This document shows positions 12,539-46,060 of a stretch of 46,060 nucleotides of DNA, one piece after another. Position 1 is the first letter of the stretch; every line of letters starts with the position of its first letter. A program made the position numbers and the translations under genes. The stretch comes from Candidatus Poseidoniales archaeon (lineage in GTDB: Archaea; Thermoplasmatota; Poseidoniia; Poseidoniales; Poseidoniaceae). Location: positions 1-46,060 of the forward strand of contig QQSJ01000039.1 in the NCBI GenBank assembly GCA_003602635.1, read 5' to 3'. Below the pieces are notes generated by a model that saw nothing but the letters and a program-made list of their open reading frames with translations, made no database searches and was not told where the DNA came from.

Positions 12539-12871
12539 ATGGGAGAGGAACTCGTCGTCTCCCTGCCGGTTGAGGCGCCCCGCCGTGTCGGGCCGCTGAC
12601 GCTGCTTCGCGAGATTTGGCGCGAGGTCACCTTTGGCATTGGCGTGTGGGGATCCGCACGTCCCTTGTTCACGGTGCTTCTTGCTGCCGTGCCCTTCCTC
12701 TTTCTCGGACAACACATCAACCGAGAGCACCGCAAAGGCATCGATTTTGGTTTGCTCCAAATTCCGTTGGCTCTCACGGTCATCCTCTGGGTGGCCTTGT
12801 ACCTCTGGTCCATCTTTGACGCCTGGAGAGCGGCCACGGCCATCGTTGCACGTGGCGGTTTGACCGACTAA
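12539..12871 (+). CDS. Small membrane protein (110 aa, hypothetical)
   Basis: ATG at 12539 (the ORF-track start at 12509 is TTG). Two or three hydrophobic helices (LFTVLLAAVPFLFLG; LQIPLALTVILWVALYLWSIF). Codon usage resembles the neighbours. Its 3' end overlaps the convergent metalloprotease gene by 4 nt. Preferred over the antisense ORF 12323..12760. Confidence 0.45.
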   Translation: MGEELVVSLPVEAPRRVGPLTLLREIWREVTFGIGVWGSARPLFTVLLAAVPFLFLGQHINREHRKGIDFGLLQIPLALTVILWVALYLWSIFDAWRAATAIVARGGLTD

Positions 12872-13656
12872 GGTCGCCAGAGTTGCTGCTCGGCTTCGAG
12901 GTCACCCGATGCCAAATCCGTCAGGTCAGCACGGTCGTCGTCATCGAAGTCGTCGGGCAGCTGACCGCTGAAGATGGCACCCAAGGAAGAGGATTCAACG
13001 GCCCAATACATCACGGAATCCTCGTTTGAGGAGTGGCCTGGATGGTCGGCGTCTTCGTGGTCTCGGGGGGACGTGTAGACCAAGTTCACCAGCCCAAGCA
13101 AGTGACCCACTTCGTGGAGCGCCACGCTGTTCTCAATGTCCTCCGCACTCGGCCTTTGTAGGATGTTTTCGGCATCGTCAATGCTGTCACGAAACACGGC
13201 GACGTCCGCGGCGTTGACGGCCACGCCGAGCACGTTGTCGTCGTCATAGCTGCCTGAGGGGAACAGGACATGCCAACGTAGCGTGGTTTCGTCCATGGGC
13301 GGCGCCTCACGGTGTTCCAAAGCCTGAGCACGAACGTCATCGGCGCTCCATGCGCCGTCCTGATCAAACGAAGTTTCGGTGATGACGGCCTTGACGCCTT
13401 CTGGTTTGTCGCAGACGTCGCTCAGGCGGTCGATCAGCAACTCGACCGTGGTGGCCTCAGGAGCGTAGCCAGGAGCGTGATCGATTTCGATCACCATGTC
13501 CGTGAATTGGGCGGATGAGAGGCACGCCAACGTGAGGCCTCCTGGAACGCCACGCTGTTCGGGCAAGGCATCGGTGACCGTGTCTCGAAGCCCACCGAGG
13601 CAGCCTTGCAGCAGCACAAGGCTTGCCAGCATCAACGCCAGCATGACCCGCTGCAT
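12868..13656 (-). CDS. Predicted secreted Zn-metallopeptidase lipoprotein (HExxH)
   Basis: Signal peptide with lipobox-like MLALMLASLVLLQGC. HEVGHLLGL at 13102..13116 (verified), followed by DHEDADHPGH and a Met-turn-like SVMYW. The third zinc ligand is not the canonical metzincin His (HEVGHLLGLVN), so the clan is uncertain. Confidence 0.7.
   Translation of the reverse strand: MQRVMLALMLASLVLLQGCLGGLRDTVTDALPEQRGVPGGLTLACLSSAQFTDMVIEIDHAPGYAPEATTVELLIDRLSDVCDKPEGVKAVITETSFDQDGAWSADDVRAQALEHREAPPMDETTLRWHVLFPSGSYDDDNVLGVAVNAADVAVFRDSIDDAENILQRPSAEDIENSVALHEVGHLLGLVNLVYTSPRDHEDADHPGHSSNEDSVMYWAVESSSLGAIFSGQLPDDFDDDDRADLTDLASGDLEAEQQLWRP
13102..13116 (-). other. HExxH zinc-binding motif
   Basis: The reverse complement reads CAC GAA GTG GGT CAC, which is HEVGH. 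Confidence 0.9.
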
Positions 13657-13692
13657 GATGTGCGGTCGCCGGCGCCAAATTTGAACCCGCGC

Positions 13693-14136
13693 TCAGAAGT
13701 CATCAGGAATGTCCAACGGAGAAAACAAGCGGCCTGGCCCGTCTGCTGCAGCCAATTGTGAGCGCACCATGTGTTCCCAAGGCCGCAGCGCAAGGAGCCC
13801 ATGGATAAGGTCGGCGTCCACTTCTTGCAAGGTCACACGAATCAGCGTGTCCAGAATGTCCATTCGGTCGGCATCAACGTGGTCGAGCAAGCGGTCAAGC
13901 GTGAAGGCTGAATCCGCCCCAGACCCTGCCTCTTCGTCAAGTGGCCAAGGTGACCTGACGCGTGCGTCAAGCTCGTGTCCCTGTTGCTCTGCCCACGCCT
14001 CAAGCGGCTCAAGCATCGAGGTGATGCGCCGCTGAAGCACGATGGCGACTTCCACGATGGGCATGCCAAGTTGCCCGATGAGATGGACCATCCGTTCGGT
14101 CAACGTCACCATGCCATCAACGTCGTCGGAAGCCAT
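13693..14136 (-). CDS. Small acidic cytoplasmic hypothetical protein (147 aa)
   Basis: The ATG lies 9 nt after the stop of the upstream giant gene, and the stop lies 36 nt before the metalloprotease start. No signal peptide or TM helix. Asp/Glu-rich, ending ...SPLDIPDDF. No family recognised. Confidence 0.5.
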   Translation of the reverse strand: MASDDVDGMVTLTERMVHLIGQLGMPIVEVAIVLQRRITSMLEPLEAWAEQQGHELDARVRSPWPLDEEAGSGADSAFTLDRLLDHVDADRMDILDTLIRVTLQEVDADLIHGLLALRPWEHMVRSQLAAADGPGRLFSPLDIPDDF

Positions 14137-14145
14137 CGCCAGGCC

Positions 14146-17100
14146 TCACAACGCGTCGAGGAACGACCAACCGTAGTGCGCCCACTGTTCCTCGGTCCAA
14201 CCGGCTGGAAGGCCGGTGGGTGGCTTTGGAGGAAGACCACGCGGGTCGTCGGTCGTCAACGGAGCAGGGGCCGGTTCTGGAGCGGCCATCAGCTCAGGCT
14301 CGCTGGTCGGCATCACCAACCCAGGAGGCAAGGGCGTTGCAGATTCCACGTTCAGTCCTGACGGCGGTGGAAGGTCTGCCAAGGCTGGAAGGGCCTTCGG
14401 GGCCGTGTCCATCGTGGCGATGACGGCCTTGGTCTGATCTTCGCTTCCGACCTCTTCGTCGCCGTACTTCATGCGGCGGTACATCACCAACATCCACACG
14501 GCCGCCGACACGGAAATCATCGTGATGACGTAGAGGAAGAGACTGAACCGCTGCTCACCCAAGTCTTCGCGTAGGGCATCCCCGTCCCGGGCGACGTCCT
14601 CGGTCAACAAGAGCGGAGCCACAGGCATCCGGTCGGCCTCAACGCCGTCCACCAAGAGGAGCAAGCGGTGTTCGAGACGATCGCCGACTTCTCCGTCGGC
14701 CATGACCTCGAGTTGAACCTGAACGTCAGCGTTCGCGGCAGCGGTCAGATCCTCGCGCGCAATTTCAGCCCAGAAGCCTGCGTCTTGACGACGTTGAAGC
14801 ACAAAGGACACCTCGCCGGTGCCGCCTTCGTTGGAAGCCTGGACGTCCAAGACGGCCGCCTGGTTGGGTGCGGGGCTGGGGTTGTCCCACAAGGCTGCGG
14901 CCGAAGGCAGGTCGATGGACGGACCGATCAAGGAAAGCGGCCATGTCGCGAAAGGCGTCTCCACGGTGTTCGACGAGGTGTCGAAGGGGTTCCCTGCAGC
15001 GTCGCTTCCGGAGACCCAAACGTCCACCATGTACGTGGGAAGGAGCGTTGTCGCTCCACCGTCGGTCAAATCCAAATTGCCGCTCCAGAAGAATTGCTCG
15101 CCGAAGGGCGTGGTGTCCGGCAATTCCAGCGCACCTCGCGAAATTTCGGCTTCGCCTGCCCTCACACGGTAGTGAAGCACGGCAGACTCGTCGGTGTCAA
15201 ACCCGTGGTCGTCAAGGGTCTCAAGTTGGACCAGCAAATCGTGGGCTTGCCCAATCGGTAAATCTTGACCGGCTTCGATTCTTGAGAGCGAAACCGCCGC
15301 CAAACTCGGTGGCGTGCTGTCGACGATGAACCGAACACGTGGGACCAATTCCGTCTGGTCTTCTGCCAATCCGGGCAGGTCGTCCAGCCCCAACTTCAGA
15401 TCAAGGTAGCCCGAGCGGATGCCGGGCACCAGCAAATCGAGCGAGAATTCGCCGTCGGTTCGTGGGCTGGTGACCCAGATGTGGTCGTAGTCGCCGAAGG
15501 TGACGTCGAAGGCACCGGCGGGCGCGGGCGTCTCGTCTTCGGAAAACAGCACACGACCGGTGACGCGCAAGGCTTGACCTGCACCGATGATGCTCTCATC
15601 AAACTCGTCGTTGTAGTGGTTCGTGCCGTCGCGCAATTCCACGGCGCGGATGTGGCCACGTTCGGTGTCAAAGCGGAAATCGTTGTCCAGACTCCACCAG
15701 TTGTCGCCCAAGCTGGCGTCCACCTCGTAACATGGAACGTCAGGCTCGAGGCCACAGGGCTGGTCGGTGACCTGCAATTTGGGCCGGATGAAGGACTCAC
15801 CGTCGGTGTCAAAGGACTCTGGGAAGGACCACGTCAGTTGGAACAAGGCGCTGATGATGATCCGGTTTGGATCCTCAGCATCGAGTTGCACGCTTGAGTA
15901 GAGGTTGCTGACCGCGAGGAATTCCCCACCGGTGCTCATCTCAGCGACGGGCAGCCCGTCGGCGTCAGGAGCCAAGGAGATGAAGATGGACGTGTCGTCG
16001 TCGTCGAAGTCGCCACCAAGGGCGAATTGAACCTGTTGGATGTCCTGCCAGCCGTTGCCGTCGGACAGGGTGATTTGCGCCGTGTAGGGCACGCCGGGGT
16101 GCAGCGGTGACTCGTCGTCATGGCCAACGATGGTGGAATTCGCCGCGTCAAGTTCGGGTTGGAACTCCTCGCGCACGGTGTACGTCACCAAGTCAGCGTT
16201 CCAATCTGGGGGCACCTCAGAGGCTCCCCTGGTGCCGCAGTTCTGAGCACCAAGGTCCTCGGGACAGACGGGGCCGCCACCCATGGCCACCACGTTGTCC
16301 TGAGGGTCTTTCCCGGTGATGTAGTAGGAGACGCGCTGTCCGTGGACGAGCATGGAGTCGTCGATGCTGGTCTCGAAGATGTTCAGGCCGCCGGCCCTGA
16401 TTTCAGGGGAAGAGACGGTCTTGAGTTCGTATTCCTCTGCCTGCGGAAGGCCGTCGAAATTGTAGTCCGTGCAGCCAATCGCTTGGCTGGCCTTGCATCC
16501 AAGCCAGTAGTGAAGGCTGATTTGGTTGGGCGGGTCCACCGAGTCTTGGATGACGATGCTGATCGGTTGCGCGGTCGCAGCGTGCAGTTCGACGCCGTCC
16601 ATGGGGTCGGAGGAGAGCACCAACGGCGAGTTGCCGTCAAGCGTCAAGCGGATCGTGTTGTAGCCCGGGTTGGTGAAGGTGGAACCGTTGGCCAAGTTGA
16701 CCGCTTCCACGTAGAAGACCATCCCGCCGGGGGCACTCTCAATCGGGGATTGGAGGGTGATGTTGTACTCACCAAAGGCCGGGTTCGTGGTCGTGGCGAG
16801 CACCACTGGTTCACCGATGGCATCGCCGTCATAGGTGACGTTTTGACCGAGCACACGGAGGTCGAATTCGCCTCCCAAGGGGCTCAATTGGCTGCCTTGG
16901 AAGTAGATCTTCCCGGCGAAACTCAAGTTGTAACCTCCGCGAACCCAATCCAATGGGTAGAGTTCTCGACCGGTTTCGTCGTAGACGCGTAGTCCGTCGA
17001 GTTGAACGTCGTTCTCGACGCGAACGTCGAGGTTGGACGTGGTCCAGTCCGTCACCTGTTCACCGATTGGATCAATGACGGTGATGTTGGCCTCCATCGA

Positions 17101-19590
17101 AGATTCATCGTCCCATGACCAGTTCACGAGGGTGGGAATCCTGATGCGGGTGATGCTGTCTGAGACCGCGGTGGAGGTGCAGTTGCCGGCATCGAAATGG
17201 ACGATGCCTCCGGCGTCGTTGAGGACGCTGCATTGATCGCCACGTTCCCATCGGACGGTCGGATCTTCGCCGTGGGAATGCTGGAGGGCCACGTCCACGC
17301 GCGTGACGCGGGTCACGTCGTCACCGCGAGCCACGTCCACAACCAGGTCACGATGGGCGCCGTCGGGAGCCAACATGCCGCCCTCCACCGACGCACCGAT
17401 GGCGCGTGTTTGCATGACGTAAGAGACGTCAAGGTTGGAGATCTTGATGCGACCCGGCGAGGCGGCCTTCACCGCGATGGTGACGTCCACTGTTCCATCG
17501 CCGTTGTCGGGCACGGCATCGTTGAAGGCTGAAACAAGGGTCGGGACGTCCTTGACTTCCGTGCCGACCAAACTGTCGTCGCTGGCATCGACGGACGATT
17601 CGTTGAGGAAGAGCAACGATTCCCAATCGTAAGCACCGTCGTCTCCGATGTCGATGCGCGGGCGGTCTGGATAGCCCTCCTCGTATTCGAGCGTGAAGGT
17701 CGAGACGGCAGGGGTCACCGTCACGTCATCCGTCTTCAGCTCGATGAAATACCGGAGTGCGGAACCTGCGGCTTCCGTGGGGAATCCAATTTCTTGACCG
17801 TTGTTCGCCTCGTACCAGTCCGTGCCGTTGTTGTTCGAAACGTACACCGTGATGCTGGTGCCAACGGGCTCGTCGGCGACCCACGTGGGACGAACCTTGC
17901 CGACCTTGGTTCCGGTCGGAATGGGCGGCGAGGTCCAAGAGCCCAGGCTTGTGTATTCGGTGTCGTGTTCGAGTTCAACCCACCATGACACGGCAGAAGA
18001 GCCGATCATCTGGGCTTTCCACACCAGTTCCTTGCCTGGGTGGGCGAAGTGAATGGTCTCGTTCTCGGTGACCGCAGACCAATGCGTCCCGTTGTCGGCA
18101 GAAACCCAGTGATCCACACGGTCGCCAATGGAGGCAGCCGACCAGCCAGAGCGCGTGTTCACAGAGAGCACGTCGTCAGCGGACGTTGTGACCGGGCCGT
18201 ACCACGTCGTGGTCCCCGGTGCAGCGATGGTGTCGTAGGTCCAACCGGTTCCGAATTCTCGGTAGTAAAGCGATTTGCTGCTCCACGTGGAATACCCGCT
18301 GTCCACCGTAACGAATCGGGTTCCGTCCCATTGCAGGCCGTAGCCAAGGCTGGAGATCTCACGGATGCCTGATTGCACCACGAGCGAGGTCGATGTCCCG
18401 CTGATGGACCATGCCTCAAGCGTGTCACGGTCGTTGTAGTAGCTGTCCTTCTGGCAACGCATGTAGAAGGTGTTGCCGTTGACTTCGAGGCCACGGACCA
18501 TTTGGCCTGTCGTCCCGCACTGACCGGTGGTTTGAGCAGAGGACGTGAAGGAATACTTGTCCTCGTTCCTGCTCCAACTGCCGTCTTCGATGTTGTATTC
18601 CACCACACGGCGCTGGCTGTTGTGCACGACCCAGAAAGTGTCGTCTTCACGGTCGTACGCAATCCCCGTGTAATCGCCAAATTGAGGCGACAGGTCGTAG
18701 GACGCCGTGCAGACCCAAACGTCGTCGCGGGACACGTCCAGTTCGAGCAAACGGTGGTATTGCGTGGGTGCCGTCGATCCGGACACCTGCTTGTACCCTG
18801 AGAGGATGGCCAGCAAGCGCTCGTCGTCGGCGAGCGCCCAATCGCGGAAGCCGTACTGTCCGTAGTACGAACTGCTGTGCGTTTGCGGCACCACGCAGGC
18901 CGACGCAGTGGAGTCGATGGAGACGCCCCATGCGCGGGTGAGGTTGTTGGGATAATGGGCCTTCACGACGTTGTTGAGGTTGTTCGAATTCCATGTGGAC
19001 ACAAAGAGCCAGTCGTGGTGCTTCAGCACAGCACCTTGGCCTTGCGCGGTCAGCGTGGTGCTGGTGCGCTGGACCTGTTGTGAGAACCGGGTCTCCGTGG
19101 AGTTCGACGTGTGGGGTTGACGCACGGCGTAGGAGCCGTTGTCGTGCCAAGCCGTCGAAGAGGAATCGATGATCGTGTCAAGGCCGTGCGGGAAGAATTC
19201 CGTGGTCGGGGTCGCCTGTTGCAAGGCGAGGACGGGCGAACGAGCATCGACGCCAGCCCCCTCACCGGCCAGCCATTGTTCCGTGGTGCTGGTCGAGGTC
19301 GAGGACCAGCCGGTGGAACTTGCACCGGACAAGGTCATGCTCACGTCCACCACTTCGGCACCGACGGGCAAGCGAACGCTTGCGCCGGTGTCGGGGTTTG
19401 CGCCCTGGTAGAGGGCGACATATTCGGTGGAACCGTCGCTGAAACCGTAGGCGTGGCGGGCCACGCCGGACGCTTCAGCGTTGGGCGCCATGGACGTCAA
19501 CAACGGCGATGCGGACATCAGCATCATGAGCAGCGTCAACATCATCGCAGGCGCGAATGATTTGCGTGACGTCATGCGAACATCCACCAT
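14146..19590 (-). CDS. Giant cell-surface protein (~1814 aa), N-terminal signal peptide, C-terminal TM anchor and Pro-rich cytoplasmic tail
   Basis: Uninterrupted ORF. The track start at 19620 is TTG; ATG candidates are 19590 (MVDVRMTSRK...) and 19575. Signal-like FAPAMMLTLLMMLMSASPLLTSMAPNAEA. Possible beta-propeller-like N-terminal region, then Ig-like modules with many N-x-S/T sequons. TM helix FSLFLYVITMISVSAAVWMLVMY (about 14479..14547), then a 110-aa Pro-rich tail ending LPAGWTEEQWAHYGWSFLDAL. Confidence 0.8.
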   Translation of the reverse strand: MVDVRMTSRKSFAPAMMLTLLMMLMSASPLLTSMAPNAEASGVARHAYGFSDGSTEYVALYQGANPDTGASVRLPVGAEVVDVSMTLSGASSTGWSSTSTSTTEQWLAGEGAGVDARSPVLALQQATPTTEFFPHGLDTIIDSSSTAWHDNGSYAVRQPHTSNSTETRFSQQVQRTSTTLTAQGQGAVLKHHDWLFVSTWNSNNLNNVVKAHYPNNLTRAWGVSIDSTASACVVPQTHSSSYYGQYGFRDWALADDERLLAILSGYKQVSGSTAPTQYHRLLELDVSRDDVWVCTASYDLSPQFGDYTGIAYDREDDTFWVVHNSQRRVVEYNIEDGSWSRNEDKYSFTSSAQTTGQCGTTGQMVRGLEVNGNTFYMRCQKDSYYNDRDTLEAWSISGTSTSLVVQSGIREISSLGYGLQWDGTRFVTVDSGYSTWSSKSLYYREFGTGWTYDTIAAPGTTTWYGPVTTSADDVLSVNTRSGWSAASIGDRVDHWVSADNGTHWSAVTENETIHFAHPGKELVWKAQMIGSSAVSWWVELEHDTEYTSLGSWTSPPIPTGTKVGKVRPTWVADEPVGTSITVYVSNNNGTDWYEANNGQEIGFPTEAAGSALRYFIELKTDDVTVTPAVSTFTLEYEEGYPDRPRIDIGDDGAYDWESLLFLNESSVDASDDSLVGTEVKDVPTLVSAFNDAVPDNGDGTVDVTIAVKAASPGRIKISNLDVSYVMQTRAIGASVEGGMLAPDGAHRDLVVDVARGDDVTRVTRVDVALQHSHGEDPTVRWERGDQCSVLNDAGGIVHFDAGNCTSTAVSDSITRIRIPTLVNWSWDDESSMEANITVIDPIGEQVTDWTTSNLDVRVENDVQLDGLRVYDETGRELYPLDWVRGGYNLSFAGKIYFQGSQLSPLGGEFDLRVLGQNVTYDGDAIGEPVVLATTTNPAFGEYNITLQSPIESAPGGMVFYVEAVNLANGSTFTNPGYNTIRLTLDGNSPLVLSSDPMDGVELHAATAQPISIVIQDSVDPPNQISLHYWLGCKASQAIGCTDYNFDGLPQAEEYELKTVSSPEIRAGGLNIFETSIDDSMLVHGQRVSYYITGKDPQDNVVAMGGGPVCPEDLGAQNCGTRGASEVPPDWNADLVTYTVREEFQPELDAANSTIVGHDDESPLHPGVPYTAQITLSDGNGWQDIQQVQFALGGDFDDDDTSIFISLAPDADGLPVAEMSTGGEFLAVSNLYSSVQLDAEDPNRIIISALFQLTWSFPESFDTDGESFIRPKLQVTDQPCGLEPDVPCYEVDASLGDNWWSLDNDFRFDTERGHIRAVELRDGTNHYNDEFDESIIGAGQALRVTGRVLFSEDETPAPAGAFDVTFGDYDHIWVTSPRTDGEFSLDLLVPGIRSGYLDLKLGLDDLPGLAEDQTELVPRVRFIVDSTPPSLAAVSLSRIEAGQDLPIGQAHDLLVQLETLDDHGFDTDESAVLHYRVRAGEAEISRGALELPDTTPFGEQFFWSGNLDLTDGGATTLLPTYMVDVWVSGSDAAGNPFDTSSNTVETPFATWPLSLIGPSIDLPSAAALWDNPSPAPNQAAVLDVQASNEGGTGEVSFVLQRRQDAGFWAEIAREDLTAAANADVQVQLEVMADGEVGDRLEHRLLLLVDGVEADRMPVAPLLLTEDVARDGDALREDLGEQRFSLFLYVITMISVSAAVWMLVMYRRMKYGDEEVGSEDQTKAVIATMDTAPKALPALADLPPPSGLNVESATPLPPGLVMPTSEPELMAAPEPAPAPLTTDDPRGLPPKPPTGLPAGWTEEQWAHYGWSFLDAL

Positions 19591-19639
19591 GCGCCGAAGA
19601 CGTTTGGCTGAGCATTTCAATGATGCCCTGTCATGGGCT

Positions 19640-25393: not shown

Positions 25394-25524
25394 GGATGAC
25401 CCTCTGCCGAGCACCCTCGACGCTTTCTTTGCCCTCTGCGACGCTTAAGAGGGTGGTGGAGCGGTGTTCCGACGATGATTCGACCGCGAGGTTCATTGAC
25501 GCTCGCCGACGGCGCAATCAAGGC

Positions 25525-26361: not shown

Positions 26362-26384
26362 ACGGATGCAGCGGTCCTCGACCC

Positions 26385-32602: not shown

Positions 32603-32611
32603 GATCCAACC

Positions 32612-36937: not shown

Positions 36938-36973
36938 CGACACGGTATCCACCGTGCCTGCGTTGTCCAGACC

Positions 36974-36980
36974 GGATATA
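36974..36980 (-). promoter_or_regulatory. TATA-box-like element upstream of the beta-helix giant gene
   Basis: The minus strand reads TTATATC about 40 nt upstream of the ATG at 36937. This is one of very few AT-rich heptamers in the window, and the spacing fits an archaeal TATA box with a short 5' UTR. Not validated. Confidence 0.3.
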
Positions 36981-37027
36981 ACGCTGTGGGCCTTTTTGCG
37001 CCACGCAAGGTATCGGATTCTTCTGAT

Positions 37028-37046
37028 TGTATCATATTTTGATACA
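37028..37046. promoter_or_regulatory. Perfect 7-bp inverted repeat TGTATCA-TATTT-TGATACA in the largest intergenic gap
   Basis: Read directly from 37021 ttctgattgt atcatatttt gatacatcaa. It is the most AT-rich spot in the window, lying 26 nt downstream of the subtilase stop and ~95 nt upstream of the next ATG. On the minus strand a GGGCCGTTTTG tract (37047..37057) precedes it. It could be an operator, a second TATA/BRE region or a terminator. Confidence 0.35.
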
Positions 37047-37071
37047 TCAAAACGGCCCGCGACACAACGGC

Positions 37072-38265: not shown

Positions 38266-38290
38266 CTCGCATTTGAAGGCGTGTTGACCT

Positions 38291-41200: not shown

Positions 41201-44200
41201 GTTGATTCGCTCGCCATGCTCCGTGCTGGGCACGATCGCGAAGGCGGGGGTCACCATGCTTCCGTTGGACACGTTGCCGTCGCCGGCCACGTCTTGGAAG
41301 ACGTTGAACATCAGCGTGTGACCGCCGGGGTTCAGGTAGAGGCTGGCAGGTTCGTTGACCTGCTCGGGGCCGCGCGTCACGACGACATCGTCGTCGGACG
41401 TGGCGTTGTAGGTCACATCTTCCACGACGCTGATGTCGTAAACGCCAACTGGAAGGTGGTAGAGGAAACTGCCGTCCTCGTTGGACGTCGCTTGCCAGAC
41501 CACACCCTCAGCGCTGGTCGCGGTCATCTCAACCGGGACCCAACCTGGAATTTGGCTGTTCCACGTGGTGGAGTTGTCAATGTGGTAAAGGGCGCCAGTG
41601 ATCAGTTCGGTTGGCTCGATGATGATGTCGAGATCTTCCATACCGTCGGTGACGTTGACGAGGCTACCGTGTCCGTAGCTGGTGCTGATGGAATACATCG
41701 TCAGCGAGTAGGTCGCATCCGTTGGCACACGCATCGAGAACTGGCCTTGGTTGTCCGAGTTTGCATCGCCCGTGATGGCGGTGAAGGTCAAACCGTCCGC
41801 GCTTGTGGCCGTGACTTCCAATTGAGTCACGGCTTCGGTCTCACGCTCGGACTCCAACCACGCGTCGTAATCGACGCCAGCCATCGGTGCAGAGACCGTG
41901 CCGTTCAGCCACGTGGACGCCGCATACGTCATGGTGACGCCAAAGTCCTCCTCGCCGACATCAAGCCGAGCCAGAAGCAATTGGTCCGCGTCACCGTCGT
42001 CGGAGACGGTGTACATTCCAATGGGGACTTCCGCGTAGACAACGCCGTTCTCGTCGCTGACCACCACGTAGGGGTCGAGCTCCGGCGCGTCGTTGGTCAG
42101 CGTCACCGTACGGTTGGCCACGTCGAGGGTGGGTTGACCGTCGCCGCCGAAGGGCGCCTCAAGCTGGATGGTGACGTCGGTCATCGGCGGCACGGGGTAG
42201 GCCAGCGTGATGTTCTGAGGTTCGTCTTGAACGCTGAACGTCGCGTTGACTTCGTACCATCCGTCTTGATCGACGTCGACACGGTAGTAGTACTCACCAG
42301 AAGGAATCGGTCCTTGCGTGAAACTGCCGTTCTCATCGGTCACGATGGTGACGGCCGCGTCCAAACCGAGGCCGGTGTCCACCATTTCGATGATCGTGTT
42401 GGGCAGGATGTTGCCGTCCATGTCCTCAAGCACGTCAGCAAAGACGGCTCCGGGCATGGTCATTTCAAGGTCGTAGGAGGCCTCGATGCCCACTTCAACA
42501 GGGTCAGGCAGCAGGACGTTCCTGCCGTTCGGGAGAACAGCCACCATGTTGTAGACACCGGGGAGCAGGCCGGTCTTGTAGAAGGAACCGGGCTGGACCA
42601 TTGGACCCGAGAAGTCGCCTTGACCGGCGAACAGACCCGTTCCGTTGAGCGTCCCGACGCCTTCGAAGACGCCTGCGCCCTCAAAGGTCTGTCCAACCAC
42701 GTCCCTCACGACCACGGTGGGCGAGAGGGTCTCCACACGACCGCTGGCTTCGACCGTGCCTTCGAAGAGGTACTTCGTGGCGTTGTCCTCGCCGGTCATG
42801 GTGCACACAGAAGTGTTGTCAGGCGTGCGGGCGTTGTTGTCCAGACAGTCGCTGGCGTTGACGAGATCGGCTTCGCTGACCCAACCGTCAATGATGCCGC
42901 GACCGGTCCACGTTCCGTTTGCGGTGTGGATGCGGTCACCGGTCAACTGACGCGTGTAGGTTCCCGTGAATCCACGGGCCACGGCCACACCGTCGGACTC
43001 GAAGGTGCCGTTTTCGGTGAACGTGACTTCACCCGTGCCCTGGAGGATACGGGTTTCGTCGGTGGTGAACGAACCGTTGTTGGTGACGACCGTGTGGTTT
43101 TCGGTGTAGGACCAGATGTCACGGAGGATGAACGTCGTGTCGACCAGAGGCTCACCGGCAAAGGATTCGTCGCCGATCCACGTGACCACGCCGCTCACAC
43201 CGCTCGATGCCACGGAGACGTCGGCCGTGCGGTCGAGGGCAACCACCCGGTTGGCTTCGTCGGCGCTGACGTTGAGGTGAGACTCGCCCACCCAGGTCAT
43301 GTTGGCCACTTCGCCGAGGATGGCGGTGATGTCGTTGACGGTGCGGTCGTCGTTGTATTCAGCGAGGATGTCACCGAGGTTCTCGGTGAACGAACCGTCT
43401 TGAATCGCATTGCGCGCGGCCGTCGGCTCGTATTCGCCGATGAAGGCGCTCACACGGATGTGGCCAGCAGGCGCCATGAAACTGTAGCGCCCTTCAGCGT
43501 CCGTGTCAACGAAGCCAATGGGGATCCAGTAGGTGTCCTCGTCGAGGTCCTCGCCGGATTCTCCGGAGAAGGCGTCACGCTCGATGAGCAGACGCACGTT
43601 TTCCAACGGCTGCCCGTCGTCGGCGAAGGTGACCTGACCGGTCATCTCAGCACCTGGGTAGAACTTGAGGATCTTGACCATGGAGTTGGCTTGTCCGTAG
43701 GAGTTCTCGACCGTGGTGTCGTCGTTGTAATTGGCGAGCACGAAGTGGTTCATCATGGCACCAGGCAGAGGCAACGCTTGGGACATGAAGGTCCCAGGAG
43801 ACCCGCTTTGTCCGAAGTGCTGAGCCGGCTGTGGGTTGGAACCGTCGCTGGCCACGCCAAGCGTGGAGGCACCGTAACCGACGTAAGCACGTGCGACCAT
43901 GGTGTCGAAGAATTCGGCGGTGTGGTCGGCGCGCACGTCAATGATCTGCACCGGGTCAATCTCTGCACCGGCTTGCTGGTTGAGCACGTCCTGACGGATG
44001 GCTTCGTCTACTTCTTCGCGCGTCATCTCATCGGAGAACGCACCGCGTTGGGTTTCGTAGACTTCCGTGAGGAAAGTCGTCGGGTCCTGTCCAGAAAGGA
44101 TGGTCGGGGCTGCGAAGATGCCCATCGGTTGCCCGCCGTTGTACTGTGCGTCCGCAGTGTAGCGACCCGCACGGGGGTAGAGGCGGTTGTCCACGGCAAA

Positions 44201-46060
44201 GTAGCGGATTTCGTGGTCGCGGTCCACGGTCTGACCGGGTGCGCCTTCGTAATCCTGAACGGTGTATTGGCCTTCGAGACCAATCACGCTGGTGTAGAGC
44301 TCCATCATGTTCGCCTCAGACAGGCCCTGAACGAGCAACTGCACGGTCATGGCCAGACGAGCGTTTGAACGGTGGATGTGGGTCGACACGGAGTTGAACT
44401 CTTCAGCGAGGTCGGCCGTGTACCAGTAGTCGCCAAACACATAGTGCGTGACTTCGAAGGTGGTGTCGGTCTGCAAGCGCACGTTGTTGTTGAAGGTCCG
44501 GTTCGCGTCCTCTTGGGACAGGAAATCCGTGCCGTCACAGGAACTGGCCAGGCTCTCGGCGCAGGCGAGAATCTCGCCGTCCTTCCAAAGACGCCATCGG
44601 TCATCGGAACTGCTCGTTCCGTCGTCGTTGAGCTTGTGACCCTGGGTCATCACGGTGTCACGGTTGGTCTGCACCACGGAGAAGGACGCGTCAAGCACCT
44701 CGACGGGGAGGCTGAGGTCGCGCTCTTCGCCCTCAATGAGGCGGGTGACGTCGGTGAATTCGGTGCCGTCGTTGATGTCCAAGAGGGCATCGTACTGTGC
44801 ATCGGTGAGGTGTTCCTGCAGAATGGCGTCGAACGCAGGCGTGAAGATCGTCTCATGGCCACGGTCCGAGGCATACATACGGTCAGCCTCAGCGAGTTGC
44901 CAGAACCACATGGCCGCCAAGTCGGCTTCGCCACGTGCGAGGAGCATGTTTCCTGTGGCGGGGATACCCGACTGGAAGTTGTCAGAAACGGAGGGGTGGT
45001 CGCCAGAGGTCAAGGCTTGGAAACCGTAGTCCCACCACGACACGAAGGCGGGCTTCTCAGAATACGGTTGTTCGGCGTCTTGTTCAGCGAGCCATGCATA
45101 CGCATCGTTCCATCCCTGTTGGTTGAAACTGCTGCCGAAGGAACCGAGGTAGCGCATGCCACCGTCCTCGTACCCGGTCGGGTTCAGGAAGGAGAAGCCT
45201 GCAACGTCCCAGCGGAGGATGTCGGGCATGATGTTGAACAACGTCTCGTCGATGTCATCCTCGGCTGGAGAAGAGCCGGGGATACCTGCGTCAAGACCGT
45301 AGGTCATGTGCTGGCCACCAAGCATGATCAGAACGAGCATGATGGCGCTGAACTGAGGCGTGCGCCAAACGGCCTTGCGCGTGGCCGTGATCCGGTCAGC
45401 AGGCGTACGAACACCCATGCGCCGCATCTTTCGGGACATTTCCTTGGTGCCAGACCAGCCCCAGAGACCCACGGCGCCCCACGCGCCAAGCACGGCCAAA
45501 GCCGGAGTGGCGTTGAAGATGAAACGGGCAGCTGTCCAGGACATGAAGATGGCCAGAAGGACCCACGTGGCCATGAAGATGTGCTCATGGCGTCGCTGGC
45601 GCGTTCCGCGCCACAGCGCGATGATGCCCATGCTGAGGGCCAAGATGAACACGATTGGTCCAAACGATGCAAAGAGCAGTCCACGGTCCGGAGCGTTGGC
45701 TTCGGCGACCGTGCCGAAAATCTTGGTCTTGGTGAAGTATCCAGCGCCCGTGAACAACACGTTGAACGCGTTGGATTGCTCGAAGTACTGGAGCACCCAA
45801 ATCACGACCACGAAGACGACGGCGGCTCCGGTCAGGGAACCGAGCACGAGCAACCACGGCTTGTCTCGGAAGCCCGTGGTCACGTAAGCGATGGCCGTCG
45901 TGAATCCGAGCACGAAGAGCAAGGGCTGGAGGCCCGTACCGCTGAAGACCAAGTCCATGCCAGGGTAGGCGTAGAACGGCATGGCGAGCAGCAACGTCGT
46001 GCACAGCATGGTCAACATGAGCATGTTGAGCGTCGTGCTGTCCTTGTTGCGGAACATGTT
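38291..46060 (-). CDS. aglB: Oligosaccharyltransferase AglB/STT3 fused to a ~1900-aa extracellular repeat array with a C-terminal TM anchor; 5' end probably beyond window
   Basis: At least 2589 codons are open to the window edge. A polytopic TM region is followed by FVSWWDYGFQ (WWDYG at 45023..45037, verified). Then come many CarboxypepD_reg/Cna-B-like modules (e.g. VLEDMDGNILPNTIIEMVD...IVTDENGSFTQGPIPSGEYYYRV; SNEDGSFLYHLPVGVYDISV; SDDNGVWQLFVPVRTSYEVE) and CARDB-like modules (LTNTGNGDATYTFEV; IPVTNSGERDAIDSVIVYA). The C-terminus has a Thr/Ser linker and a TM helix ILAVIVVAIVGLVTWGG plus a basic tail. Confidence 0.85.
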   Translation of the reverse strand, partial: NMFRNKDSTTLNMLMLTMLCTTLLLAMPFYAYPGMDLVFSGTGLQPLLFVLGFTTAIAYVTTGFRDKPWLLVLGSLTGAAVVFVVVIWVLQYFEQSNAFNVLFTGAGYFTKTKIFGTVAEANAPDRGLLFASFGPIVFILALSMGIIALWRGTRQRRHEHIFMATWVLLAIFMSWTAARFIFNATPALAVLGAWGAVGLWGWSGTKEMSRKMRRMGVRTPADRITATRKAVWRTPQFSAIMLVLIMLGGQHMTYGLDAGIPGSSPAEDDIDETLFNIMPDILRWDVAGFSFLNPTGYEDGGMRYLGSFGSSFNQQGWNDAYAWLAEQDAEQPYSEKPAFVSWWDYGFQALTSGDHPSVSDNFQSGIPATGNMLLARGEADLAAMWFWQLAEADRMYASDRGHETIFTPAFDAILQEHLTDAQYDALLDINDGTEFTDVTRLIEGEERDLSLPVEVLDASFSVVQTNRDTVMTQGHKLNDDGTSSSDDRWRLWKDGEILACAESLASSCDGTDFLSQEDANRTFNNNVRLQTDTTFEVTHYVFGDYWYTADLAEEFNSVSTHIHRSNARLAMTVQLLVQGLSEANMMELYTSVIGLEGQYTVQDYEGAPGQTVDRDHEIRYFAVDNRLYPRAGRYTADAQYNGGQPMGIFAAPTILSGQDPTTFLTEVYETQRGAFSDEMTREEVDEAIRQDVLNQQAGAEIDPVQIIDVRADHTAEFFDTMVARAYVGYGASTLGVASDGSNPQPAQHFGQSGSPGTFMSQALPLPGAMMNHFVLANYNDDTTVENSYGQANSMVKILKFYPGAEMTGQVTFADDGQPLENVRLLIERDAFSGESGEDLDEDTYWIPIGFVDTDAEGRYSFMAPAGHIRVSAFIGEYEPTAARNAIQDGSFTENLGDILAEYNDDRTVNDITAILGEVANMTWVGESHLNVSADEANRVVALDRTADVSVASSGVSGVVTWIGDESFAGEPLVDTTFILRDIWSYTENHTVVTNNGSFTTDETRILQGTGEVTFTENGTFESDGVAVARGFTGTYTRQLTGDRIHTANGTWTGRGIIDGWVSEADLVNASDCLDNNARTPDNTSVCTMTGEDNATKYLFEGTVEASGRVETLSPTVVVRDVVGQTFEGAGVFEGVGTLNGTGLFAGQGDFSGPMVQPGSFYKTGLLPGVYNMVAVLPNGRNVLLPDPVEVGIEASYDLEMTMPGAVFADVLEDMDGNILPNTIIEMVDTGLGLDAAVTIVTDENGSFTQGPIPSGEYYYRVDVDQDGWYEVNATFSVQDEPQNITLAYPVPPMTDVTIQLEAPFGGDGQPTLDVANRTVTLTNDAPELDPYVVVSDENGVVYAEVPIGMYTVSDDGDADQLLLARLDVGEEDFGVTMTYAASTWLNGTVSAPMAGVDYDAWLESERETEAVTQLEVTATSADGLTFTAITGDANSDNQGQFSMRVPTDATYSLTMYSISTSYGHGSLVNVTDGMEDLDIIIEPTELITGALYHIDNSTTWNSQIPGWVPVEMTATSAEGVVWQATSNEDGSFLYHLPVGVYDISVVEDVTYNATSDDDVVVTRGPEQVNEPASLYLNPGGHTLMFNVFQDVAGDGNVSNGSMVTPAFAIVPSTEHGERINVTADMYAANGTLSVDMPIGTYVLEFEAQDAASENASDYALAPSQALSAIVVGLPLPGDAIDVALVDEWRVNGSIVDANGSELRPQGDSMLLVSSDGEDYRSLDVDENGTFADYVPSGDWIAVIGAYEGDLGTELLRQTVQVSENSARVDLALATVVSAEVQLHLREALSERNLSGFRMTLVSAHGLGNVSLDLTDDDGLVTEPMMPGTWSVHMERQDVQDRWTLDTSATPFTVAAGESLNVTDLMASHEVEIGGRLYWDLDDDNTPDADEGVSGVLMNITSLDGTTFVSNVTSDDNGVWQLFVPVRTSYEVEGSKEGFADIAYDLDGNGSYVVNDSAMSEDLQVSVGLVDVSGAVIDDVDSTRLDGATVVLQPASGLARDAITVTNTAFDGTTLTWSAEVEPGAWVVVVQQANLGENDGAVAIDLLDASVGSGGHLNQTMTIGGFIDLQTSWTGIDLVEYHLGSASDGASMISEAPTVTVDLDGEVAWDVTLGADGAISLLVPSGRVSFAADMVTVQHALALNMSYEGSTVTNVAADRQELTLTLDRRADRDLLVDVGTVDQDTVESFTNDESGVDIQAKQDGAYEHTAVEFTVDVTYDGTEFEDVFTATGNAGNAPDAADWSVEFWNETGETWQSSIEVRLGIGEDASTDDVPMEATLKVRVNLPDQNTSLSLQNGHSVNVLLTTETGEFTERSVTVRVPIVRGFDVEAMDDRAGIGSGDVQTLTTMLTNTGNGDATYTFEVVQNYDATLWEVTPATSTITVAAGDSRSQAFNVRSDEAFESGELEITVGVSEVGGSSDSLTLTVVYAQISLSVNQSLAVQRSDNTAEQESTTIVIPVTNSGERDAIDSVIVYARQQDADQDYQQVTISVPAGETVDAAFDVGKMTNGNKRFEFYIEVTGDDEDYATIASDTEGSGDEPVDFQIRFNIETTTSNSGMGQTILAVIVVAIVGLVTWGGLSMSRSGSRRF
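45023..45037 (-). other. WWDYG catalytic motif of STT3/AglB
   Basis: The plus strand reads acc gta gtc cca cca. The reverse complement is TGG TGG GAC TAC GGT, which is WWDYG, in frame with the giant ORF. Confidence 0.9.

What the first reader, a model, noticed from the sequence alone, without database searches (positions are those of the whole stretch)
12868..46060. 33-kb cell-envelope island: two protease-coupled giant-protein operons flanking a pilin-like operon, with a dedicated OST and STAND regulator
Seen: 12 consecutive genes, all envelope-related apart from the cytoplasmic MBL-fold hydrolase, the small acidic p147 and the STAND regulator. Operon A (minus strand, gaps of 49, 9 and 36 nt) encodes the secreted TSP3-repeat giant, the TM-anchored giant, a 147-aa acidic protein and a Zn-metalloprotease lipoprotein. 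The central plus-strand operon encodes the MBL hydrolase and three pilin-like proteins with 4-nt overlaps. Operon B (minus strand, gaps of 25, 134 and 9 nt) encodes the AglB giant, a TM-anchored S8 protease, the beta-helix giant and the wHTH-STAND-TPR ATPase. Four ORFs total about 7760 codons, roughly half the window. Each giant-protein operon contains exactly one membrane-tethered protease of a different catalytic class. Inference: this resembles in logic, not in sequence, bacterial adhesin-retention/release modules such as the LapA adhesin with the LapG protease. The surface-tethered proteases could mature or shed the giant adhesins, AglB could glycosylate them, and the STAND regulator could set expression. 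No mobility genes flank the island within the window.
Basis: inference. Interest (0 to 1): 0.68.

Follow-up and report, generated by a model that had tools for sequence, protein, structure and literature searches.

The report
Conserved Poseidoniales giant surface-protein gene cluster
This is not an acquired island but a roughly 35-kb block of cell-surface genes, including four giant proteins, two membrane-tethered proteases, three pilin-like proteins, a huge glycosylation enzyme and a regulator, kept in the same order in both families of the abundant, uncultured ocean archaea Poseidoniales (Marine Group II).

Summary
The twelve genes, their spacings and their domain calls are real. The AglB gene runs off the window end; full-length orthologues are about 3170 aa, so roughly 610 N-terminal residues are missing.

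The organism is a Poseidoniales archaeon. The order g1 to g12 is kept in every informative relative, about 60 loci with GC 0.34-0.61 and g7 identity down to 27%, including Thalassarchaeaceae. One lineage lacks giant g3. Composition is flat, and the housekeeping genes on the left flank are syntenic too. This is therefore a vertically inherited core cluster, not an island.

The proteases are single, locus-specific orthologues: an S8 with an invariant D/H/S triad, and a lipoprotein with a metzincin fold.

Two order-wide cis elements were found. One is a 30-nt element in the g4/g5 divergent promoter. The other is a one-directional array of TGATAY repeats, mostly 19-20 nt apart, upstream of g10. 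So "operon B" is at least two transcription units. The PH0952/MalT-like wHTH-STAND regulator is the obvious candidate binder, but this is inference.

Best reading: a cluster that builds and regulates the glycoprotein cell surface. The LapA/LapG analogy fails every membership feature tested and remains untested as a mechanism.

The parts
12868..13656 (-). g1: 262-aa Zn-metalloprotease-like lipoprotein with a metzincin fold, a lipobox LLQGC and the motif HEVGHLLGLVN...H...SVMYW
   Evidence: Pfam M10 scores just under its cutoff, 22.9 against 24 bits. In 40 orthologues H181, E182, H185, N191, H200, H208 and S214-V-M-Y-W218 are invariant. The AF2 model has pLDDT 85.5. The top Foldseek matches are archaemetzincin 2x7m, fragilysin and ADAM/adamalysins.
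13693..14136 (-). g2: 147-aa acidic protein with no signal peptide and no family match
   Evidence: No Pfam, NCBIfam or PADLOC hit. It lies next to g1 in all relatives at 38-51% identity, including the lineage that lacks g3.
14146..19590 (-). g3: 1814-aa giant with an N-terminal signal-like segment, a C-terminal TM helix and a Pro-rich cytoplasmic tail ending GWTxxQWxxYGW
   Evidence: Hydropathy, gene calls of 1780-1814 aa in relatives, no Pfam or PDB match, and tail motif conservation. It is absent from L034-L036.
19640..25393 (-). g4: 1917-aa secreted or N-terminally anchored giant with TSP3-type Ca-binding repeats
   Evidence: NCBIfam CglD 1.7e-15 and nine DxDxDGxxDGxE motifs. N-x-S/T sequons are enriched, z = 4.2. 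Length stays at 1911-1924 aa across the order.
25443..25473 (.). Order-wide conserved non-coding element in the g4/g5 divergent promoter region. The consensus is CTTATGATGCTGATGGAGCGNNGTTCGGAC; the window version is GCTTAAGAGGGTGGTGGAGCGGTGTTCCGAC.
   Evidence: Visible in all 54 non-redundant upstream sequences inspected, at a constant 59-69 nt from the g4 start and a variable distance from g5. It occurs once in the window. No Rfam family matches.
25525..26361 (+). g5: MBL-fold hydrolase, the most conserved protein of the cluster. The ORF opens at 25396, but the conserved start is M44.
   Evidence: Pfam Lactamase_B_2 7.3e-15. Identity across the order is 52-64%. No equivalog-level NCBIfam assignment.
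26385..27437 (+). g6: 350-aa prepilin-like protein with a class III signal-peptide-like N-terminus, ...A/G-VSE[IV][IL]GVxMLLAMV
   Evidence: Pfam Pilin_N 6e-4 and DUF7289 1.4e-3, both below cutoff. The N-terminal motif is conserved order-wide.
27434..29608 (+). g7: 724-aa prepilin-like protein with N-terminus DEEAVSxxxATVLLFxGV, a beta-rich middle region and a very conserved C-terminal 170 aa
   Evidence: DUF7289 at 28.5 bits, above its cutoff of 27. The family is tiny: 98 clusters among 1.84 billion representatives. In the AF2 model residues 105-555 are confident and 556-724 are not. There is no meaningful fold match. Sequon enrichment z = 3.3.
29605..30087 (+). g8: 160-aa prepilin-like protein with N-terminus [DE]xAAATE[LI]GYVFTFLLG
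   Evidence: The N-terminal motif is conserved order-wide. There is a weak DUF7266 hit, E = 0.011.
30074..32602 (-). g9: 842-aa wHTH-NOD(AAA_16)-TPR STAND ATPase, a predicted transcription factor of the PH0952/MalT type
   Evidence: Pfam AAA_16, TPR_12, TPR_MalT and HTH_Crp_2. NCBIfam MalT 9.7e-14. The best PDB match is 6mfv, the PH0952 TPR sensor, at 5.5e-22. [quoted passage not shown] Identity across the order is 46-60%.
32612..36937 (-). g10: about 1441-aa giant with a right-handed beta-helix and Ig-like domains, a C-terminal TM helix and a conserved cytoplasmic tail (FFVEFEE..DPYAWAK..YPGWxWDxxxxQWVPD)
   Evidence: Pfam Beta_helix 2.3e-11 and Big_7 2.9e-9, hydropathy, and tail conservation in most lineages (L035/L036 differ). 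Sequons are not enriched, z = -0.9.
36940..37071 (-). g10 promoter region: a one-directional array of (T)GATAY repeats followed by a TATA-like box (GCGTTATATCC) about 40 nt upstream of the g10 ATG
   Evidence: There are 4.5 copies per locus in 33 loci against 0.2-0.9 expected (mean z 5.3). Forward copies average 4.5 and reverse copies 0.42. The commonest spacing is 19-20 nt. The only two TGATAC hexamers in the 46-kb window are here. TGATAY-N13-14-TGATAY hits cluster at this intergenic position across the 112 loci, with one clear exception (positions checked by coordinate, not hit by hit).
37072..38265 (-). g11: 394/397-aa S8 subtilase with a conserved ~50-aa cytoplasmic N-terminus, one TM helix and an external catalytic domain
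   Evidence: Pfam S8 2.8e-33. D123, H158, S328 and N254 are invariant in 24 orthologues. The closest NCBIfam model is T7SS mycosin at 108 bits, below its cutoff of 278.75. TM helix at residues 70-88.
38291..46060 (-). g12: AglB/STT3 oligosaccharyltransferase fused to a ~2200-aa extracytoplasmic extension ending in a TM anchor. It is 5'-truncated by the window end.
   Evidence: WWDYG motif. AglB core hits in Pfam and in PDB 3vgp. The ORF runs off the window. Orthologues of 3166-3177 aa carry Pfam STT3 and TIGR04154 at residues 371-994. The window fragment corresponds to residues 614-3177. Sequon enrichment z = 5.9.

Best explanation
The region is a vertically inherited, order-wide core gene cluster of Poseidoniales (Marine Group II archaea). 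It most likely builds and regulates the cell's glycoprotein surface.

Shown:
- Twelve genes keep the same order, orientation and nearly the same protein lengths in both families of the order.
- The cluster encodes an AglB oligosaccharyltransferase of about 3170 aa with a giant external extension.
- It encodes three further giants: two anchored by a C-terminal TM helix and one Ca-binding TSP3 protein.
- It encodes a TM-anchored S8 protease with an intact catalytic triad and a metzincin-fold lipoprotein.
- It encodes three proteins with prepilin-like N-termini, an MBL hydrolase, and a wHTH-STAND-TPR protein of the PH0952/MalT type.
- Two cis elements are conserved order-wide, at the g4/g5 divergent promoter and upstream of g10.

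Inferred:
- The giants are exported by the Sec pathway and displayed on the membrane.
- g4, g7 and the AglB extension itself are N-glycosylated by AglB, because their sequons are enriched.
- The two surface-tethered proteases mature or trim these proteins. The g1-g2 pair goes with g4, since they stay adjacent even where g3 is lost.
- The three pilin-like proteins form a short membrane-anchored, pseudopilus-like assembly.
- On sensing a ligand, the STAND protein multimerises and binds the TGATAY repeat array, and possibly the 30-nt element, to drive g10-g9 and the divergent g4/g5 units. This is how MalT works on its MalT boxes.
For: Synteny:
- GTDB genomes L019-L032 show identical order.
- About 45 metagenome loci of at least 12 kb show identical order, with GC 0.34-0.61 and g7 identity 27-39%.
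- Source names include Ca. Poseidoniaceae and Ca. Thalassarchaeaceae.
- Protein lengths are conserved: g4 1911-1924 aa, g10 about 1450-1500, g7 715-768, g9 835-842.

The components are locus-specific. The S8 and g1 homologues that were looked up all lie in this same context, and the g7 family has only 98 clusters at 50% identity among 1.84 billion representatives.

Enzyme integrity:
- The S8 catalytic triad is invariant.
- g1 has a metzincin fold and invariant HExxH and Met-turn motifs.
- AglB has WWDYG, and the orthologues have the STT3 domain.

Surface topology comes from hydropathy. Sequon enrichment is z = 5.9 for g12, 4.2 for g4 and 3.3 for g7. Prepilin-like N-termini are conserved order-wide.

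Regulation:
- The 30-nt element appears in all 54 non-redundant upstream sequences inspected.
- The TGATAY array has mean z = 5.3, is one-directional and is mostly spaced 19-20 nt.
- The paired motif clusters at this one intergenic position across all loci held.
- g9 matches PH0952 at 5.5e-22, and PH0952 is described as a predicted transcription factor.

An "oligosaccharyltransferase" is listed among the genes more highly transcribed in samples where MGII genus O1 was active (PMC9723583).
Against: - No experiment, expression data or structure of a complex links any two components. Every substrate, partner and DNA-binding assignment is inference.
- The housekeeping genes left of g1 (PCP-NUDIX, GT2, DnaJ, ArcS, S15) are also syntenic at comparable divergence. 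Part of the conservation may therefore reflect generally slow rearrangement rather than functional coupling.
- g10 is not sequon-enriched.
- No prepilin peptidase, assembly ATPase or platform protein lies in the cluster.
- g3, g2 and most of g7 have no recognisable fold or family.
- MBL g5, the most conserved member, has no evident link to the envelope.
- AglB copy number per genome was not determined.
Confidence: 0.5

Rival explanations
1. Adhesin retention and release module. The giants are adhesins held at the surface, and the S8 and metzincin proteases cleave their juxtamembrane regions to shed them on a signal, as LapG does to LapA.
For: Each group of giant genes has one membrane-tethered protease with intact catalytic residues. 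Two giants have a single C-terminal TM anchor that one cut would release. g4 carries TSP3 repeats of the kind the MGII literature has linked to adhesion. A regulator and regulated promoters are present.
Against: No defining LapA/LapG/LapD component is present. The giants keep their length, are about as conserved as the enzymes, and are not hypervariable, which is unusual for adhesins. The cluster is universal in the order, including lineages the literature reports as mostly free-living. No cleavage motif was identified.
Confidence: 0.15
2. Inherited gene order without a common function. Several unrelated units (general AglB, a housekeeping MBL hydrolase, surface proteins, a regulator) simply sit together in a chromosome segment that rearranges slowly in this order.
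For: Synteny continues into clearly unrelated housekeeping genes on the left flank, and PCP-NUDIX still flanks g1 in the most divergent lineage. The cluster holds at least four promoters or transcription units. One lineage has genes inserted between AglB and S8, and another has lost g3.
Against: Ten to twelve genes keep order and orientation while protein identity falls to 27-45% and GC shifts from 0.34 to 0.61. Translational coupling of g6, g7 and g8 is retained. Most products share one cellular compartment.
Confidence: 0.2
3. A pseudopilus-driven export or assembly machine. The three prepilin-like proteins form a piston or scaffold that, with the S8 protease, exports or assembles the giant proteins. 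S8 would act as mycosin does in type VII secretion, or as pseudopilins do in type II secretion.
For: Three translationally coupled prepilin-like genes have N-termini conserved order-wide. The closest curated model for S8 is T7SS mycosin. S8 has a conserved cytoplasmic N-terminal segment, and g3 and g10 have conserved cytoplasmic tail motifs that could dock partners.
Against: The cluster has no secretion ATPase, platform protein or prepilin peptidase. The mycosin score is far below its cutoff (108 against 278.75 bits). There are no ESX or type II secretion (T2SS) components.
Confidence: 0.1
4. An anti-virus defence system of the STAND (Avs-like) type, with protease and MBL nuclease effectors.
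For: A STAND ATPase, an MBL-fold protein and a subtilase occur together. There are weak PADLOC/NCBIfam hits to Avs1a (E 0.0015-0.009) and a PADLOC "subtilase" model hit.
Against: The hits are generic domain matches far below family level. The cluster is universal, single-copy in context, syntenic and compositionally native, the opposite of defence islands. g9 has a DNA-binding wHTH and resembles the transcription-factor STAND PH0952.
Confidence: 0.02

Closest known systems
Archaeal AglB (STT3) oligosaccharyltransferase and agl N-glycosylation gene clusters
   Same: g12 has the WWDYG catalytic motif and an AglB core-like domain. Its orthologues have the STT3 multi-span domain. A GT2 glycosyltransferase with C-terminal TM helices lies about 2 kb left of the cluster.
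   Different: The orthologue is about 3170 aa. It has an extra ~370-aa multi-TM N-terminal extension and a ~2200-aa sequon-rich external extension ending in a TM anchor. To my knowledge, characterised AglBs are about 600-1000 aa. Its neighbours are giant surface proteins and proteases rather than sugar-pathway genes.
PH0952 / MalT clade of STAND transcription factors with a TPR sensor
   Same: g9 has the same architecture as PH0952: an N-terminal winged-helix DNA-binding domain, a NOD and a TPR sensor. A one-directional array of short repeats upstream of the adjacent promoter resembles the multiple MalT boxes bound by multimerised MalT. The MalT-box comparison rests on established knowledge.
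   Different: Sequence similarity is limited to the NOD-arm and TPR regions. Binding to the TGATAY array has not been tested. The inducer is unknown. The regulated genes encode surface proteins, not sugar catabolism.
LapA / LapG / LapD adhesin retention-release system of Pseudomonas
   Same: Only the logic is shared: a giant surface protein encoded next to a protease that could release it, under regulatory control.
   Different: There is no LapG-type cysteine protease, no T1SS, no RTX adhesin with an N-terminal retention module, no c-di-GMP receptor and no outer membrane. The proteases here are S8 and metzincin, and the giants are anchored by TM helices.
Mycosin (MycP), the membrane-anchored subtilase of type VII secretion clusters
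   Same: It is the best-scoring curated S8 subfamily. It is also a single-pass membrane-tethered subtilase encoded inside a cluster for exported proteins.
   Different: The score is well below the family cutoff. The anchor here is N-terminal with a conserved cytoplasmic head, whereas mycosins are C-terminally anchored (own knowledge). No ESX genes are present.
Archaeal type IV pilin-like proteins (Pilin_N, haloarchaeal DUF7289/DUF7266 families)
   Same: g6-g8 have short charged N-termini followed by [AG]-[VA]-[ST] and a hydrophobic helix, which fits the class III signal peptide pattern. They also give Pfam hits to Pilin_N, DUF7289 and DUF7266.
   Different: The globular parts are large (350 and 724 aa), strongly conserved and specific to the order. 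No assembly ATPase, PilC or peptidase is adjacent. Only g7 passes a Pfam cutoff.
Metzincin metalloproteases (archaemetzincin, fragilysin, adamalysin/ADAM)
   Same: The predicted fold matches these families, and HExxHxxG and a Met-turn (SVMYW) are invariant.
   Different: The position of the third zinc ligand holds an invariant Asn (HEVGHLLGLVN). Further invariant His residues lie downstream (H200, H208). The protein is a lipobox lipoprotein. Pfam M10 is just under its cutoff.

Membership tests
AglB/STT3 oligosaccharyltransferase | WWDYG catalytic motif | tested here: met
   The sequence AFVSWWDYGFQ is in the window translation. It lies at residue 956 of the full-length orthologue.
AglB/STT3 oligosaccharyltransferase | Multi-span STT3 membrane domain (Pfam PF02516) | tested here: met
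   The domain is not detectable in the truncated window copy. It is present in the 3166-3177-aa orthologues at the same locus, and TIGR04154 matches at 9.5e-53 over residues 371-994.
AglB/STT3 oligosaccharyltransferase | Transfers a lipid-linked glycan to Asn in N-x-S/T | not testable with these tools
   The only evidence is indirect: sequon enrichment in g12, g4 and g7.
Subtilase (peptidase S8) | Asp-His-Ser catalytic triad in the S8 fold | tested here: met
   Pfam scores 115.9 bits against a cutoff of 21.8. D123 (DTG), H158 (HGT), S328 (GTS) and N254 are invariant in 24 orthologues.
Type VII secretion mycosin | Score above the TIGR03921 cutoff and an ESX gene context | tested here: not met
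   The score is 108.1 bits against a cutoff of 278.75. No ESX components are in the window or in related loci.
Metzincin metalloprotease | HExxHxxGxx(H/D) zinc site plus a Met-turn, on the metzincin fold | tested here: inconclusive
   HExxHxxG and the SVMYW Met-turn are invariant, and the fold matches archaemetzincin, fragilysin and ADAM. However, the third-ligand position holds an invariant Asn, and Pfam M10 scores 22.9 against a cutoff of 24.
Archaeal type IV pilin-like proteins | Class III signal peptide: a short charged N-terminus, G/A at -1, then a hydrophobic helix | tested here: met
   The motifs are conserved across the order in g6, g7 and g8. DUF7289 is above its cutoff for g7. Pilin_N, DUF7289 and DUF7266 score below cutoff for g6 and g8.
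Archaeal type IV pilin-like proteins | Processing by a prepilin peptidase and assembly by a PilB/PilC-type ATPase and platform | not tested
   None of these genes is in the window or in the 10-kb flanks of related loci. The rest of the genome could not be searched.
STAND transcription factor (PH0952/MalT type) | NOD ATPase plus a TPR sensor plus a DNA-binding effector domain | tested here: met
   Pfam finds AAA_16, TPR_12/TPR_MalT and a weak HTH_Crp_2. NCBIfam MalT scores 9.7e-14. PDB 6mfv (PH0952) matches at 5.5e-22. The architecture is as described in PMC6468293.
STAND transcription factor (PH0952/MalT type) | Sequence-specific binding to repeated operator sites | not testable with these tools
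   Candidate sites exist, but binding is inferred only.
LapA/LapG/LapD adhesin release system | LapG-type periplasmic cysteine protease, an RTX adhesin exported by a T1SS, and the LapD c-di-GMP receptor | tested here: not met
   No such domain appears in any of the twelve proteins in the Pfam or NCBIfam scans.
Horizontally acquired genomic island | Atypical composition, mobility genes or a tRNA at the borders, and patchy distribution | tested here: not met
   GC is 0.58-0.64 throughout. Tetranucleotide correlation of every 5-kb chunk to the rest is 0.91-0.97. No tRNA or integrase is present. The cluster is present in all informative relatives, with syntenic left flanks.
PGF-CTERM / archaeosortase-anchored surface glycoproteins | C-terminal PGF motif, TM helix and basic tail; archaeosortase nearby | tested here: not met
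   There is no PGF motif in the last 60 residues of any giant. No archaeosortase is in the cluster. The AglB orthologue hits the "archaeosortase A system-associated" STT3 model only below its cutoff (179.7 against 450 bits).

The most novel reading that the evidence does not exclude
The cluster encodes one physically integrated, order-specific envelope machine that has not been described. A 3170-aa AglB would be built into a membrane complex with two TM-anchored giants, a Ca-binding TSP3 giant, a three-subunit pseudopilus-like stalk and two tethered proteases. The conserved cytoplasmic motifs of S8, g3 and g10 would couple the complex to cytoplasmic partners (g2, or the STAND TPR domain). A PH0952-type STAND would switch it on by binding a TGATAY repeat array. 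In effect this would be the Poseidoniales substitute for an S-layer, and it would take up about 2% of the genome.
Probability: 0.25. Interest if true: 0.8.

Novelty: new variant of a known kind. Interest (0 to 1): 0.6.

Why it matters
Poseidoniales are the most abundant planktonic archaea in ocean surface waters, and none has been cultured (PMC6461757). Nothing is known directly about their cell envelope.

A 35-kb cluster conserved across the whole order gives concrete candidates for the envelope's main components. These include four giant surface proteins and an AglB about three times the usual size. The same proteins are candidates for virus receptors and for the particle attachment discussed in the MGII literature.

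The two cis elements and the adjacent STAND regulator form a small regulatory hypothesis that can be tested in vitro without a culture.

The result also corrects the "island" label. This is core genome, so it could serve as a marker of synteny and phylogeny for MGII metagenome-assembled genomes (MAGs).

Tried and rejected
- **Acquired island.** Rejected on flat GC and tetranucleotide profiles and on universal synteny.
- **Defence system.** PADLOC gave only generic domain hits.
- **Hypervariable adhesin alleles.** An apparent drop of g4 identity in L023 and L032 came from internal-repeat HSPs and one probable frameshift. It is not divergence.
- **Small RNA in the g4/g5 spacer.** No Rfam family matches, even at E up to 5. 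Only about 30 nt are conserved and no D box follows, so a C/D-box sRNA is unlikely.
- **Conserved hairpin in the g4 5' leader.** Stems with different sequences occur in many lineages, but folding z-scores are modest (mean -0.9, with 41% below -1). I report it only in passing.
- **Fold assignment of g7.** The AF2 model is confident only for residues 105-555, and Foldseek gave no meaningful match (TM at most 0.12).
- **PDB sequence searches of g3, g4 and g10.** Nothing useful came back.
- **Literature.** No paper was found that describes this cluster or the DUF7289/DUF7266 families.
- **PGF-CTERM anchors.** Absent.
- **Word-index homology search with g7.** It returned only 55 hits of at least 40% identity. 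The full HMMER scan was needed to reach 30% identity.

Full report
**Observation.** The ORF map and translations confirm twelve consecutive genes between 12868 and the window end.

The four giants sum to 7760 codons.

The domain calls hold:
- g11: S8.
- g9: AAA_16/TPR/HTH.
- g10: beta-helix and Ig-like domains.
- g5: MBL.
- g6/g7: Pilin_N/DUF7289.
- g4: TSP3-type repeats, from NCBIfam CglD at 1.7e-15 and nine strict DxDxDGxxDGxE motifs.
- g1: HEVGH.
- g12: the AglB motif WWDYG.

One factual correction is needed. g12 has no start codon in the window, because the reading frame is open to base 46060. The fragment aligns from residue 614 of a 3177-aa orthologue.

**Whose genome.** Homologues of the S8 protease, of g1 and of g7 carry source names such as Candidatus Poseidoniales, Poseidoniaceae and Thalassarchaeaceae archaeon. 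The left 12 kb encodes archaeal housekeeping genes: ArcS, DnaJ, a GT2 glycosyltransferase and a pyroglutamyl-peptidase/NUDIX fusion. The window therefore comes from a high-GC Marine Group II archaeon.

**Not an island.**
- GC is 0.58-0.64 across the whole window.
- Every 5-kb chunk correlates at 0.91-0.97 with the rest in tetranucleotide use. The left 12.8 kb correlates at 0.94 with the right 33 kb.
- There are no tRNAs or mobility genes.
- GC3 is somewhat higher in the giants (0.76 against 0.65-0.69). That looks like codon bias rather than foreign origin.

**Synteny.** I looked up the genomic contexts of S8 homologues at 51-62% identity and of g1 homologues at about 56-59%. I then fetched loci around g7 relatives from species-representative genomes. 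After a full HMMER scan to find the most distant g7 relatives, I also fetched loci from metagenomes. tblastn of all window proteins against the 112 loci gives one answer.

Every locus long enough to be informative has g3-g4-g5-g6-g7-g8-g9-g10-g11-g12 in the same order and orientation. This holds over a GC range of 0.34-0.61 and down to 27% identity for g7.

Protein lengths hardly change: g4 1911-1924 aa, g9 835-842, g7 715-768, AglB 3166-3177.

The exceptions are minor:
- One low-GC lineage (L034-L036) lacks g3. There g1-g2 lies directly beside g4.
- One lineage (L011/L012) has about 2.3 kb inserted between AglB and S8, holding two small membrane-protein genes.

There is a caveat. The housekeeping genes left of g1 are syntenic as well. 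Gene order alone therefore cannot prove functional coupling in this order.

**The components.**

The S8 protease has an invariant D123/H158/S328 triad and N254. It has a single TM helix preceded by a conserved ~50-residue cytoplasmic segment. Its closest curated model is T7SS mycosin, well below the cutoff.

g1 has a lipobox. With a 40-sequence alignment it gives a confident AF2 model, pLDDT 85.5. The best structural matches are archaemetzincin, fragilysin and ADAM proteases. HExxHxxG and an SVMYW Met-turn are invariant, but the canonical third-ligand position holds an invariant Asn. Membership of the metzincins is likely but not clean.

g9 matches the crystallised STAND PH0952 at 5.5e-22. [quoted passage not shown]

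g6, g7 and g8 have N-termini conserved across the order that fit the class III (prepilin-like) signal pattern. The g7 family is tiny, with 98 clusters at 50% identity among 1.84 billion representatives. The beta-rich middle of g7 is modelled confidently, but its most conserved C-terminal 170 residues are not. No fold match was found.

g3 and g2 match nothing.

N-x-S/T sequons exceed shuffled expectation in the AglB extension (z = 5.9), g4 (4.2) and g7 (3.3). They do not in g10.

PADLOC shows nothing beyond generic domains.

**Regulatory DNA (new).**

Aligning the g4/g5 divergent spacer across relatives revealed a ~30-nt element. Its consensus is CTTATGATGCTGATGGAGCGNNGTTCGGAC, at window 25443-25473. 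It is visible in all 54 non-redundant upstream sequences inspected. It lies at a fixed 59-69 nt from the g4 start codon and at a variable distance from g5. It occurs once in the window and matches no Rfam family.

It holds a one-directional array of (T)GATAY repeats:
- 4.5 copies per locus in 33 loci, against 0.2-0.9 expected (mean z 5.3).
- 4.5 forward against 0.42 reverse copies.
- A commonest spacing of 19-20 nt.
- A TATA-like box follows, about 40 nt before the g10 ATG.

The hexamer TGATAC occurs only twice in the 46-kb window, both times here. The pattern TGATAY-N13-14-TGATAY, searched in all 112 loci, clusters at this intergenic position, with one clear exception.

Hence g10, probably together with g9, has its own regulated promoter, and "operon B" is at least two units. 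An oligomerising wHTH-STAND encoded just downstream is the natural candidate binder, by analogy with MalT and its boxes. This is inference.

**Interpretation.** The best-supported reading is a core, vertically inherited cluster that makes and regulates the glycoprotein surface of Poseidoniales. Its parts are a giant AglB, membrane-anchored and secreted giants, two tethered maturation proteases, a pilin-like trio and a STAND regulator. I put confidence at about 0.5.

The LapA/LapG analogy fails every membership feature tested. It survives only as an untested "works like" idea, at about 0.15. The strong length and sequence conservation of the giants argues against typical fast-evolving adhesins.

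Pure inherited synteny remains a serious rival, at about 0.2.

Whether AglB is "dedicated" cannot be decided here. Its universal presence at this spot suggests it is the general OST.

**Literature.** Searches found only general remarks: that thrombospondin-type genes are widespread in Poseidoniales (PMC6461757), and that an oligosaccharyltransferase is among the genes more highly transcribed in samples where MGII genus O1 was active (PMC9723583). No description of this cluster was found.

Noticed in passing
window 25443-25473 (g4/g5 divergent spacer): A ~30-nt non-coding element is conserved across the whole order, more strongly than any coding DNA around it. Its consensus is CTTATGATGCTGATGGAGCGNNGTTCGGAC. 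It lies at a fixed distance from the g4 start and a variable distance from g5, and is probably a TATA box plus an operator.
   Followed up: yes
window 36940-37071 (between g11 and g10): A one-directional array of (T)GATAY repeats, mostly 19-20 nt apart, lies upstream of a TATA-like box. It is conserved in architecture across the order. The only two TGATAC hexamers in the 46-kb window lie here.
   Followed up: yes
window about 25397-25440 (g4 5' leader, minus strand): Many lineages have a hairpin just upstream of a GGTGA Shine-Dalgarno-like motif. The stem sequences differ but stay complementary, for example CTGTGGGT/ACCCACAG and ACAGCG/CGCTGT. Folding z-scores are only modest (mean -0.9), and no formal covariation test was done.
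   Followed up: partly
window 32612-32830 (g10 C-terminus) and 14146-14400 (g3 C-terminus): The cytoplasmic tails after the C-terminal TM helices carry conserved short motifs. In most lineages g10 has FFVEFEE, DPYAWAK and YPGWxWDxxxxQWVPD (L035/L036 differ). g3 has PPTGLPxGWTxxQWxxYGW. These W-rich motifs look like docking sites for a cytoplasmic partner.
   Followed up: partly
window 38100-38256 (g11 N-terminus): The S8 protease has a conserved ~50-residue cytoplasmic head before its TM helix (LPEP..ILSAVDPS..WRSEV.GWAP, with eight invariant residues). This is unexpected for a simple secreted protease.
   Followed up: partly
L013 425-9958 (full-length AglB orthologue): The orthologue has an extra ~370-residue N-terminal extension with about nine predicted TM helices ahead of the STT3 domain. 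This is in addition to the ~2200-residue C-terminal extension, giving about 22 TM segments in all.
   Followed up: partly
L034, L035, L036 (GC 0.35 lineage): The TM-anchored giant g3 is absent, and g1-g2 lie directly next to g4. All other cluster genes are kept. The g10 tail motif also differs in L035 and L036.
   Followed up: partly
L011/L012 about 7580-10000: About 2.3 kb is inserted between AglB and S8. It holds a 225-aa multi-TM protein and a 96-aa ORF with two hydrophobic segments, so the AglB-S8 adjacency is not strict.
   Followed up: no
window 5427-7838 (+): An 803-aa protein of unknown family lies outside the finding. It has a signal-like N-terminus and sequon enrichment (z = 4.3), and it is syntenic in relatives at about 30% identity. 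It may be another surface glycoprotein, so the boundary at 12868 is not sharp. A GT2 with C-terminal TM helices lies at 9833-10831.
   Followed up: partly
window 27434-29608 (g7), residues 556-724: The most conserved part of g7 has long invariant runs such as DRGGPGPRFAAT, RRGW.GPYG and YVGWVPDP. AF2 models it at pLDDT below 35, while the less conserved middle reaches 80-93. This part may fold only in a complex.
   Followed up: no
window 12539-12871 (+): A 110-aa hydrophobic ORF on the opposite strand overlaps the g1 stop by 4 nt. It is called as a gene of 110-115 aa in the relatives whose gene calls were seen. No family was assigned (DUF6336, E = 0.005).
   Followed up: no
window 11463-12455 (-): A single 330-aa protein fuses a pyroglutamyl peptidase (C15) domain with a NUDIX domain. 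It is conserved next to g1 even in the most divergent lineage.
   Followed up: no
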